Position numbers and translations under genes: made by a program. Shown here piece after piece: positions 21,593-23,557 of a stretch of 64,000 nt of DNA (positions are counted from its first letter, which is position 1; each line of letters opens with the position of its first letter). A model generated the notes under the pieces. It made no database searches and was not told the DNA's origin. It saw only the letters and a program-made list of their open reading frames with translations. The DNA lies in the NCBI RefSeq assembly GCF_988242995.1, contig NZ_OZ547043.1; one strand, 5' to 3'.

Positions 21593-23557
21593 TCAGGCGG
21601 CGGTGTTCGCCATACGTTGTTCGCGGTTTATCGCCTGCAAGGCGGAGACATCAACAATCAGTGCCACGCTGCCGTCGCCAAGAATGGTCGCAGCAGAAAT
21701 GCCGGGGACTTTGCGATAGTTACTTTCAAGGTTTTTAACCACAACCTGGTGTTGACCAATTAATTGATCCACCAGCAAGGCGTAGCGGCGACCGCCACTT
21801 TGTAAGATCACCACAATTCCCTGGGTGGCTTCGGTTTTCGCGCCCGCGACGTTGAACACTTTCCACAGTTCGACGATGGGCAGATATTCACCCCGCACTT
21901 CCAGCACCCGCTCGCCGCCGGCCAGTGGATGGAGATCGGCTTCACGGGGTTGCAGTGATTCCATAACAGCATTCAGCGGCAGAATGAAAACTTCATCCGC
22001 AACGCGTACGGACATGCCGTCGAGGATGGCCAGCGTCAGCGGCAGTAAAATGCGGATCGTAGTGCCAGTACCCTGCTTCGACTGGATTTCGACATGACCG
22101 CCCATCTCCTGGATATTACGTTTAACGACGTCCATGCCGACGCCGCGCCCGGAGACGTCGGTGACCTGCTCTGCCGTGGAGAAGCCAGGTGCAAATATCA
22201 GCATCGCGACTTCGTCGTCGCTCATGTTTTCGCTGACAGTCAAACCTTGCGAGGCCGCTTTTGCCAGAATTCGCTCACGGTTTAGCCCCGCCCCATCGTC
22301 GGTCACTTCAATGCAAATGTTGCCGCCCTGATGTTCGGCAGACAGAATTAAATTTCCGACGCTGTTTTTACCTGCGGCGAGCCGTTTTTCTGGCAGTTCA
22401 ATACCGTGATCGAGGCTATTGCGTACCAGGTGGGTCAGCGGGTCGATAATGCGTTCTATCAGGCTTTTGTCGAGTTCAGTAGAACTGCCCACCAGCGTCA
22501 GTTCTACCTGCTTGCCGAGTTTTCCCGCCAGATCACGCACCAGCCGGGGATAGCGACTAAAAACATATTCCATCGGCATCATGCGAATCGACATCACTGA
22601 TTCCTGCAAATCACGGGCGTTACGTTGTAACTGCCCCATGCTGGTTATCAAATCACCATGATTAACCGGGTCCAGTTCGCTGGAACGCTGGGCAAGCATG
22701 GACTGGGTGATAACCAGCTCGCCGACGAGGTTAATTAATTGATCAACCTTTTCTACCGCTACACGGATGCTGGTGGATTCATTGCTGCGCGTCGTTTTTT
22801 CCCGCTCCACGCGGCCGGTTGGCGCTTGTTCGGCTGCCAGTTTAAGCACTGGTGGGGTGGATATTTTTGGCGAGACTTCTACTGTTTCAAAGGTAATCTG
22901 ATCGGCTTCAATCACAAAACAGAGTACCGCTGTGATGTCATCTTCGGCGATGTCGCCCGGTAATATTGCCGAGAGCGAATCCGCCCCTTTCACCACGTCA
23001 GTTAACGTTGTCAGATGTCCCAGTTCTTCTTCCAGCAGGTCGACTTCCCCGGCCTTCAGGCGCGAAAGGATAATTCGTCGCGGCGACTGACTGCGACTCT
23101 GCTCATCTTGCGGTTCACTTTTGGCAACCACACTTAATCGGGTCACTGCGGATGGCGTTTCGCCTTTCGCTTCTAATGCCAGTTGACGCAAGGCCTGGCA
23201 GATATAATCGAAGCTGGCGGCATCCGGCTCTTGCGACTGTTTATAAGCGTCGAGCTGTTCTTGCATGATGTCCTTCGTTTCCAAAAACAGATTGATAATG
23301 TCGGTGTTGAGTTGCATCTCACCTCGTCTGGCTTCATCGAGCAGGTTTTCCATCAGATGCGTGGTTTCCTGCAAAACGCTGAAGCCAAAAGTTCCTGCCC
23401 CTCCTTTGATCGAGTGGGCAGCCCGAAAGATGGCATTCAATTGTTCGGCATCTGGCGCTTCCGGCTGCAAAACCAGCAAATGCTGCTCCATGTCAGCCAA
23501 CAGTTCGTCCGCTTCATCAAAAAATGTCTGATAAAAATCGCTTATATCCATGCTCAC
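21593..23557 (-). CDS. cheA: chemotaxis histidine kinase CheA (654 aa, GTG start; internal start at Met98 gives CheA-S)
   Basis: ORF track 21593..23611; GTG at 23555-23557 gives [11 protein letters not shown]-terminus; P1 phospho-His region (HSIKGGAG) present. Confidence 0.94.

What the first reader, a model, noticed from the sequence alone, without database searches (positions are those of the whole stretch)
23264..23557. cheA uses a GTG start and carries the internal CheA-S start codon
The longest ORF begins upstream at an ATG, but the conserved N-terminus [10 protein letters not shown] begins at an in-frame GTG (23555-23557), leaving the expected 4-nt gap after motB. The in-frame Met98 codon (23264-23266, ...ETKDIMQEQ...) is the documented second start that yields the short CheA-S isoform lacking the phospho-acceptor His48.
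Basis: partly seen in the sequence, partly recalled or inferred. Interest (0 to 1): 0.2.

Follow-up and report, generated by a model that had tools for sequence, protein, structure and literature searches.

The report
Known cheA double translation start
This is the ordinary E. coli chemotaxis kinase gene cheA, which starts at a GTG codon just after motB and has a long-documented second in-frame start at Met98 that makes the short CheA-S protein, so the finding is correct but textbook knowledge.

Summary
The window is E. coli chromosome, about 99% identical to K-12 overall and 100% over this stretch. cheA lies on the minus strand at 23557..21593.

**Confirmed:**
- The GTG at 23557-23555 is the annotated start and gives a 654-aa protein.
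- It lies 4 nt after the motB stop TGA (23564-23562). That stop sits inside a strong Shine-Dalgarno (SD) ribosome-binding sequence, GAGGTGA.
- His48 is encoded at 23416-23414 and Met98 at 23266-23264.

**One error:** the upstream in-frame codon at 23611-23609 is TTG, not ATG.

**Comparison with 80 Enterobacterales loci:**
- GTG is invariant at codon 1, while the spacer in front of it varies.
- In-frame stops occur as close as 2-4 codons upstream, and 50 of 79 loci have no upstream in-frame start. The TTG extension is therefore not conserved coding sequence.
- Met98 is invariant.
- The codons just before Met98 (about 84-100, core 88-93) have the lowest synonymous diversity in the whole gene.
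- That stretch is AU-rich and predicted to be unusually unpaired. In-frame Met23 and Met81 show neither feature.

Published work states that CheA-S initiates at ATG-98, lacks His48, is abolished by M98L and tethers CheZ. No internal promoter or Rfam element was found.

Verdict: real, correctly interpreted and already known. Interest is low.

The parts
21593..23557 (-). cheA coding sequence for the long form CheA-L (654 codons plus stop)
   Evidence: ORF and translation. The RefSeq cheA coordinates in MG1655 map exactly. Pfam finds Hpt, CheY-binding, H-kinase_dim, HATPase_c and CheW domains.
23555..23557 (-). start(L): GTG initiation codon of CheA-L
   Evidence: Direct reading. It is the annotated start. 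GTG is present in 81/81 orthologous sequences. Codon 2 varies only synonymously, AGC 70 and AGT 11.
23562..23568 (-). Shine-Dalgarno sequence GAGGTGA for start(L); its last three bases are the motB stop codon TGA (23564-23562)
   Evidence: Predicted duplex with the 16S rRNA 3' end is -11.6 kcal/mol, the strongest for any in-frame start candidate. GAGG ends 7 nt before GTG. GAGGTGA ends with the motB stop in 70/79 loci, and the motif is kept even where motB stops 27-30 nt earlier.
23558..23561 (-). 4-nt spacer (CAGC) between the motB stop and the cheA GTG
   Evidence: The gap is 4 nt in 65/79 loci and its sequence varies (TAGC, TACC, TCCC, TTGC and others).
23609..23611 (-). Upstream in-frame TTG (not ATG) that opens the mechanically longest ORF of 672 codons; not a real start
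   Evidence: No SD precedes it (-3.3 kcal/mol). In relatives, 22/79 loci have an in-frame stop within 18 codons upstream of the GTG and 50/79 have no upstream in-frame start.
23414..23416 (-). His48 codon (CAC), the phospho-acceptor, present only in CheA-L
   Evidence: Counted from the GTG. His is present in 81/81 sequences. The Hpt domain spans residues 8-100.
23264..23266 (-). start(S): ATG codon 98, initiation codon of CheA-S
   Evidence: ATG is present in 81/81 sequences. Literature: PMC7696710, PMC7750401, PMC3180615, PMC12808680.
23267..23293 (-). Codons 89-97: AU-rich stretch just upstream of start(S), read here as the internal translation initiation region. It contains the weak SD AAGGA (23275-23271).
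   Evidence: It has the lowest synonymous diversity of 413 nine-codon windows in cheA, and the result holds for window sizes of 6-15 codons and in a 38-sequence diverse subset. The consensus is AAC CTG TTT TTG GAA ACN AAA GAT ATT ATG. Predicted accessibility is at the 93rd percentile in E. coli and at a median 91st percentile in the 80 sequences tested. The AAGGA duplex is -5.4 kcal/mol.
21593..23266 (-). Coding sequence of the short form CheA-S (557 codons plus stop), nested in frame within cheA
   Evidence: 654 - 97 = 557 codons in the same reading frame. Literature as above.

Best explanation
This is E. coli cheA, the third gene of the sigma-28-driven motA-motB-cheA-cheW operon. One mRNA is translated from two in-frame starts.

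**start(L).** This is the GUG at 23557-23555. It is served by a strong SD (GAGGUGA) that contains the motB stop codon, so ribosomes finishing motB terminate 4 nt before the cheA start; translational coupling is an inference. Initiation here gives the 654-aa kinase CheA-L with the phospho-acceptor His48.

**start(S).** This is the AUG of codon 98 (23266-23264). It lies in an AU-rich, poorly structured stretch with only a weak SD (AAGGA in E. coli, absent in most relatives). Initiation here gives the 557-aa CheA-S. CheA-S lacks almost the whole four-helix Hpt bundle, including His48, but keeps the last P1 helix, which binds the phosphatase CheZ and brings it to the receptor array.

**Shown here:** coordinates, reading frame, SD strengths, conservation of both starts, non-conservation of the upstream extension, nucleotide-level constraint and predicted accessibility at start(S).

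**Taken from the literature:** CheA-S is actually made from codon 98, and it binds CheZ.

**Inferred:** motB-cheA coupling, and the idea that the conserved U-rich tract acts as an SD-independent enhancer.
For: - Identity and annotation: 100% identity to E. coli genomes, with cheA annotated from the same GTG 4 nt after motB. The full-length PDB chain 6s1k_A (654 residues) aligns residues 1-140 to 1-140.
- Domain architecture: Hpt, CheY-binding, dimerisation, HATPase_c and CheW.
- start(L): GTG in 81/81 sequences; the spacer in front varies; codon 2 varies only synonymously. GAGGTGA pairs at -11.6 kcal/mol with 7 nt from GAGG to GTG, against 13 nt to the ATG of codon 3.
- Upstream extension: in-frame stops lie as near as -2 and -4 codons, and 50/79 loci have no upstream in-frame start.
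- start(S): ATG in 81/81 sequences. Codons 84-100 hold the lowest synonymous diversity in the gene at every window size tested. The next distinct low region is codons 1-9, the gene's own start.
- Accessibility: the Met98 initiation region is at a median 91st percentile, against 36-54 for codons 1, 23 and 81.
- No sigma-70-like or sigma-28-like promoter lies inside the region, and there is no Rfam element there.
- Literature: PMC7696710, PMC12808680, PMC7750401, PMC3180615, PMC2716512, PMC3676780 and PMC1447658.
Against: - Nothing here measures translation directly. The primary papers (Smith & Parkinson 1980; Kofoid & Parkinson 1991; Sanatinia et al. 1995; McNamara & Wolfe 1997) are not held in the library, so they are cited only through later papers.
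- GTG codon 1 and ATG codon 3 are both invariant, so conservation alone cannot separate them.
- The residues around Met98 ([18 protein letters not shown]) are invariant at the protein level, so conservation of the Met itself says little.
- The peak of synonymous constraint (codons 88-93) lies 13-30 nt upstream of the AUG rather than at the usual SD position. Most relatives have no SD there (median -3.3 kcal/mol). The link between that constraint and initiation is therefore an inference.
Confidence: 0.96

Rival explanations
1. CheA-L actually initiates at the ATG of codon 3 (23551-23549), and the GTG two codons upstream is untranslated leader, or both codons are used.
For: ATG codon 3 is invariant in 81/81 sequences. 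It shares the same upstream SD (-11.6 kcal/mol within its 20-nt upstream window). Its region has a somewhat higher predicted accessibility than the GTG. ATG is generally a stronger initiator than GTG (general knowledge).
Against: GAGG lies 13 nt from this ATG but 7 nt from the GTG. GTG is invariant in 81/81 although the 3-5 nt just before it vary freely. Codon 2 varies only at its third base and only synonymously (AGC/AGT), as expected for translated sequence. RefSeq and the standard His48/Met98 numbering use the GTG.
Confidence: 0.05
2. CheA-L initiates at the upstream in-frame TTG (23611-23609) or GTG (23596-23594), giving an 18- or 13-residue N-terminal extension that overlaps the end of motB.
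For: The frame is open back to the TAA at 23635-23633, and these are start-type codons. A weak SD-like match (-6.8 kcal/mol) precedes the GTG at 23596.
Against: No SD precedes the TTG (-3.3 kcal/mol). In relatives, in-frame stops interrupt this stretch (22/79 within 18 codons, some at -2 or -4), and 50/79 have no upstream in-frame start. The annotation does not use either codon.
Confidence: 0.01
3. The short CheA form arises from an internal promoter or from proteolysis rather than from internal translation initiation at codon 98.
For: None found here. The mechanism was historically an open question when two cheA products were first seen (Smith & Parkinson 1980, cited).
Against: No sigma-70-like site lies in 23100-24000. 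No sigma-28-like site with 5 or fewer mismatches lies on the minus strand between 23270 and 23900, whereas the known operon promoters are recovered. Published M98L and other codon-98 mutations abolish CheA-S (PMC7696710, PMC12808680). The nucleotide-level, synonymous constraint just upstream of the ATG is expected for an RNA signal and not for a protease site.
Confidence: 0.02
4. In E. coli, Met81 (23317-23315) is an additional minor internal start, because it is directly preceded by GAGGTGAG.
For: The SD-like match is -9.2 kcal/mol, stronger than that at Met98 (-5.4).
Against: GAGG ends only 4 nt before the ATG. The SD-like bases fall in freely varying codons: R77/R78, G79 (GGT/GGC/GGG/GGA) and E80 (GAG 40, GAA 39). 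The median across orthologs is -5.7 kcal/mol, with 33/81 at -6 or stronger. Predicted accessibility is low, at the 55th percentile in E. coli and a median 36th across the 80 sequences tested. No such product is described in the papers read.
Confidence: 0.05

Closest known systems
E. coli K-12 cheA with tandem in-frame starts, start(L) and start(S) (Smith & Parkinson 1980; Kofoid & Parkinson 1991, as cited in PMC7696710)
   Same: The sequence is identical over the 701 nt compared. It has the same GTG start, the same 4-nt gap after motB, and the same ATG-98, His48, 654-aa and 557-aa products.
   Different: Nothing at this locus. The window as a whole comes from a non-K-12 E. coli, about 99.1-99.3% identical, with a different fliC region.
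CheA-L/CheA-S co-expression in other Enterobacteriaceae (McNamara & Wolfe 1997, known here only by title from reference lists)
   Same: Met98 and its upstream sequence are conserved in all 80 Enterobacterales loci examined.
   Different: Most relatives have AAA rather than AAG at codon 95, and so lack the AAGGA SD seen in Escherichia (7/81 have AAG).
Other bacterial genes with in-frame internal starts that give N-terminal proteoforms (infB IF2 alpha/beta, CcmM, SsaQ; reviewed in PMC11005335)
   Same: One ORF is read from two initiation sites, and the shorter product has a distinct role.
   Different: Here the short form loses the catalytic phospho-acceptor domain and gains a scaffolding role for CheZ.

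Membership tests
CheA chemotaxis histidine kinase | Five-domain architecture: P1 Hpt, P2 CheY-binding, P3 dimerisation, P4 HATPase_c, P5 CheW-like | tested here: met
   All five Pfam domains score above their curated cut-offs, in the canonical order.
CheA chemotaxis histidine kinase | Phospho-acceptor histidine in the P1 HSIKGG motif (His48 in E. coli numbering) | tested here: met
   AAHSIKGG has His at residue 48 counted from the GTG. His is present in 81/81 orthologs.
CheA chemotaxis histidine kinase | Operon context motA-motB-cheA-cheW behind a sigma-28 promoter | tested here: met
   Gene order from the MG1655 annotation, which is collinear with the window. A sigma-28 consensus match with 2 mismatches lies at 25568(-), upstream of motA.
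Enteric cheA tandem-start system (CheA-L plus CheA-S) | In-frame AUG at codon 98, downstream of His48 and before the last P1 helix | tested here: met
   ATG at 23266-23264. The Hpt match ends at residue 100. ATG is present in 81/81 sequences.
Enteric cheA tandem-start system (CheA-L plus CheA-S) | A functional ribosome-loading signal at the internal start | tested here: inconclusive
   The SD is weak: AAGGA at -5.4 kcal/mol in E. coli, with a median of -3.3 kcal/mol in relatives. However, the region has the strongest synonymous constraint in the gene and high predicted accessibility. This is consistent with an initiation region but is not a measurement.
Enteric cheA tandem-start system (CheA-L plus CheA-S) | A short protein is actually produced, and it depends on codon 98 | not testable with these tools
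   Literature only: M98L eliminates CheA-S (PMC7696710, PMC12808680).
Enteric cheA tandem-start system (CheA-L plus CheA-S) | The partner phosphatase CheZ is encoded in the genome | tested here: met
   cheZ is annotated in collinear MG1655, and the corresponding ORF ends at 14626 on the minus strand of the window.

The most novel reading that the evidence does not exclude
The internal start(S) of cheA may be an ancient signal, largely independent of an SD, that is under selection across Enterobacterales. The conserved U-rich tract CUGUUUUUGGAAAC lies 13-30 nt upstream of AUG-98 and is the most synonymously constrained stretch of the whole gene. It would act as a ribosome (S1-type) loading or standby site. 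A minority of lineages, including Escherichia, have added an AAGGA SD through K95 AAA to AAG, which may tune the CheA-S to CheA-L ratio. Alternatively, the constrained tract serves some other RNA-level function unrelated to initiation.
Probability: 0.5. Interest if true: 0.2.

Novelty: already known. Interest (0 to 1): 0.07.

Why it matters
It matters little for discovery. The GTG start, the 4-nt motB-cheA junction and the Met98 start of CheA-S have been part of the E. coli chemotaxis literature since 1980-1991 and are already in the reference annotation.

The check is useful mainly for annotation. It shows that the mechanically longest ORF over-extends cheA by 18 codons, starting at a TTG.

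There is one small by-product. The stretch before Met98 is the most synonymously constrained part of cheA across Enterobacterales, even though it lacks a good SD in most species. This gives independent, sequence-only support for the internal start and a concrete target for mutagenesis.

Tried and rejected
- **Primary papers.** I tried to read PMC207748, PMC176941, PMC178899 and the review PMC2899694. None is held, so the claims rest on later open-access papers that cite them.
- **Initiation-profiling and N-terminomics data.** The Ribo-RET preprint has no supplements held. The Salmonella riboproteogenomics supplements do not mention cheA.
- **Literature searches that found nothing relevant.** These were 'CheA + Met98' without a hyphen and 'GTG start codon + cheA + motB'.
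- **Internal promoter as the source of CheA-S.** I scanned for sigma-70-like sites and sigma-28-like sites. Neither was found in the relevant stretch, so I rejected this idea.
- **A known RNA element under the constrained stretch.** Rfam at gathering threshold finds nothing in cheA.
- **A conserved SD at Met98.** Rejected, because K95 is AAA in 74/81 sequences.
- **Met81 as a conserved second internal start.** Rejected, because its SD-like bases are not conserved.

Full report
**1. What is in the sequence**

Reading the minus strand gives ...CCGAGGTGACAGC GTG AGC ATG GAT ATA AGC GAT TTT TAT CAG...

- The GTG is at 23557-23555.
- The TGA inside GAGGTGA (23564-23562) ends the preceding 308-codon ORF, 23562..24488. 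This leaves a 4-nt gap, CAGC (23561-23558).
- With GTG as codon 1, the translation reads (V/M)SMDISDFYQ...AAH48SIKGG...ETKDIM98QEQ.
- His48 is encoded at 23416-23414 and Met98 at 23266-23264. The product is 654 residues, or 557 residues from Met98.

One statement is wrong. The mechanically longest ORF (672 codons) opens at 23611-23609 with TTG, not ATG. It is bounded by an in-frame TAA at 23635-23633. The nearest in-frame ATGs upstream (23644, 23665) lie beyond that stop.

**2. Identity**

- The 701 nt around the junction are 100% identical to many E. coli chromosomes, including K-12 MG1655. They are found in 5378 of 5426 complete E. coli genomes.
- RefSeq annotates motB ending 4 nt before a 1965-nt cheA that starts at exactly this GTG.
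- Pfam finds the canonical CheA architecture: Hpt 8-100, CheY-binding 161-223, H-kinase_dim 261-324, HATPase_c 372-508 and CheW 514-640.
- Solved E. coli CheA chains, including the 654-residue 6s1k_A, align from residue 1.
- The window as a whole is about 99.1-99.3% identical to MG1655 and collinear with it, except around fliC/fliD. It therefore comes from another E. coli strain.

**3. Which start gives the long form**

I scored every start-type codon in the region for pairing of its upstream 18 nt with the 16S rRNA 3' end.

| Candidate | Position | Predicted SD pairing (kcal/mol) | Comment |
|---|---|---|---|
| GTG, codon 1 | 23557 | -11.6 (GAGGUGA) | Best of any in-frame candidate; GAGG ends 7 nt upstream |
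| ATG, codon 3 | 23551 | -11.6 (same SD) | GAGG ends 13 nt upstream |
| TTG | 23611 | -3.3 | No SD |
| GTG | 23596 | -6.8 | Weak SD-like match |

A scan of one genome per species returned 80 Enterobacterales loci, from Escherichia and Citrobacter to Serratia, Yersinia, Dickeya and Hafnia, at 59-93% protein identity.

- The codon aligned with codon 1 is GTG in all 80 loci, and (V)SM(D/E) follows in all.
- The 3-5 nt spacer in front varies freely (TAGC, TACC, TCCC, TTGC, CAGC, CCAC and others). GTG does not vary, and codon 2 varies only synonymously (AGC 70, AGT 11).
- In the cheA frame upstream, the nearest stop lies anywhere from -2 to -116 codons. It is within 18 codons in 22 of 79 loci, and 50 of 79 loci have no in-frame start codon upstream at all. 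The extension is therefore not conserved coding sequence.
- GAGGTGA ends with the motB stop in 70 of 79 loci, and the gap is 4 nt in 65 of 79.
- Where motB stops 27-30 nt earlier (Pectobacterium, Rahnella and Brenneria types), GAGGTGA plus 3-4 nt plus GTG is still present. The motif is thus kept for cheA initiation and not merely as the end of motB.
- Predicted accessibility of the GTG region is only average, at about the 54th percentile. This fits reliance on a strong SD and on ribosomes arriving from motB. That last point is inference.
- I cannot fully exclude use of ATG codon 3. Spacing, the invariance of the GTG and the synonymous-only change in codon 2 all argue for the GTG.

**4. The internal start**

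Met98 is ATG in 81 of 81 sequences. The surrounding peptide [18 protein letters not shown] is invariant too, so this alone says little. I therefore looked at synonymous sites.

- For every conserved, degenerate column of a codon alignment of the whole gene, I divided the codon entropy by the mean for that amino acid. I then averaged the values over sliding windows.
- The nine codons 89-97, directly before Met98, rank first of 413 windows, at 0.40 of the expected diversity.
- All eleven lowest-ranked windows fall between codons 83 and 101. The next distinct region is codons 1-9, the gene's own start.
- With windows of 6, 9, 12 or 15 codons, and in a subset of 38 sequences less than 90% identical to each other, the minimum always falls within codons 84-102, with a core at 88-93.
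- The consensus is AAC CTG TTT TTG GAA ACN AAA GAT ATT ATG CAG GAA CAG. It is AT-rich at third positions.
- Predicted unpaired probability of the 25 nt around Met98 is at the 93rd percentile in E. coli. Across the 80 sequences tested (window plus 79 loci) the median is the 91st percentile, and 47 are at or above the 90th. The corresponding medians for codons 23 and 81 are 49 and 36.

The SD at start(S) is weak.

- In E. coli, AAGGA (23275-23271) lies 4 nt before the ATG and pairs at -5.4 kcal/mol.
- It depends on K95 being AAG, which is true of only 7 of 81 sequences. The rest have AAA, and the median pairing is -3.3 kcal/mol.

In-frame Met81 has a stronger SD-like sequence in E. coli (GAGGTGAG, -9.2 kcal/mol). 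Those bases fall in freely varying codons, and the site is predicted to be poorly accessible.

**5. Alternatives to internal initiation**

- No sigma-70-like promoter lies in 23100-24000.
- A sigma-28 consensus scan recovers the expected operon promoters. These are a perfect match at 20982(-) before tar, 25568(-) before motA, and 51773(+) and 51679(-) at fliC/fliD. It finds nothing on the minus strand between 23270 and 23900.
- Rfam finds no element within cheA.

**6. What the literature says**

[quoted passage not shown] It also states that CheA-S is not essential for chemotaxis (Sanatinia et al. 1995), that M98L eliminates it, and that it localises CheZ to the receptor array.
- PMC12808680 uses M98L for the same purpose.
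- PMC7750401 says the short form 'begins at Met-98'.
- PMC3180615 says the first 97 residues, including His48, are missing, and that the remaining P1 residues bind CheZ.
- PMC2716512 notes two alternative initiation codons and an 'endogenous RBS' for CheA-S.
- PMC3676780 and PMC1447658 give the same picture.
- The primary papers themselves are not held.

**7. Verdict**

The feature is real and sits at the stated coordinates. It is already known and already in the reference annotation.

The only addition here is a sequence-only confirmation. Both starts are invariant across Enterobacterales, the upstream extension is not conserved, and the stretch before Met98 is the most synonymously constrained and one of the most accessible parts of the gene, despite lacking a good SD in most species. 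The position of that constraint, 13-30 nt upstream of the AUG, is not fully explained. A U-rich loading site is my inference.

Noticed in passing
window 23315-23325 (minus strand): In-frame Met81 ATG (23317-23315) is directly preceded by GAGGTGAG. This SD-like match (-9.2 kcal/mol) is stronger than the one at the documented Met98 start. It is not conserved in orthologs and is predicted to be poorly accessible.
   Followed up: yes
window 23386-23406 (minus strand): AAGGAGG (23406-23400) lies inside codons K51-G53 of the conserved HSIKGG phospho-acceptor motif. It is the strongest anti-SD match in the region (-12.1 kcal/mol) and is followed by an out-of-frame TTG at 23388. It may be an internal SD-like pause site imposed by the protein motif.
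   Followed up: no
window 23276-23293 (minus strand): The peak of synonymous constraint in cheA is at codons 88-93 (ATC AAC CTG TTT TTG GAA). This is 13-30 nt upstream of AUG-98, not at the usual SD distance. Why this U-rich tract in particular is frozen is not explained.
   Followed up: partly
window 49372-53289, about 58506-58582, and 62687-64000: The window is collinear with K-12 MG1655 at 99.1-99.3% identity, except for these stretches. The first covers the fliC/fliD region, so the strain probably has a different flagellin (H) type.
   Followed up: partly
window 20972-21049 (+), 6674-6981 (-), 49944-50067 (-), 2696-2738 (+), 39274-39573 (-): Rfam gathering-level hits are C0465 RNA, MicL sRNA, STnc490, ES036 and three tRNAs. 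C0465 lies in the cheW-tar intergenic region, on the strand opposite a perfect sigma-28 consensus at 20982(-).
   Followed up: no
L015 (Kluyvera intermedia) and L023 (Kluyvera genomosp. 3), from position 1501: The cheA reading frame is cut short at 128 and 446 codons respectively. These may be pseudogenes or assembly errors.
   Followed up: no
L068, L071, L072, L073, L074, L076 (Pectobacterium, Rahnella, Brenneria), just upstream of position 1501: motB ends 27-30 nt before cheA instead of 4 nt, yet GAGGTGA plus 3-4 nt plus GTG is retained as a free-standing SD.
   Followed up: partly
E. coli genome collection: Two of the 5382 places matching the motB-cheA junction are on records labelled as plasmids, and 48 of 5426 complete genomes have no match. 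These may be non-motile lineages or deletions.
   Followed up: no
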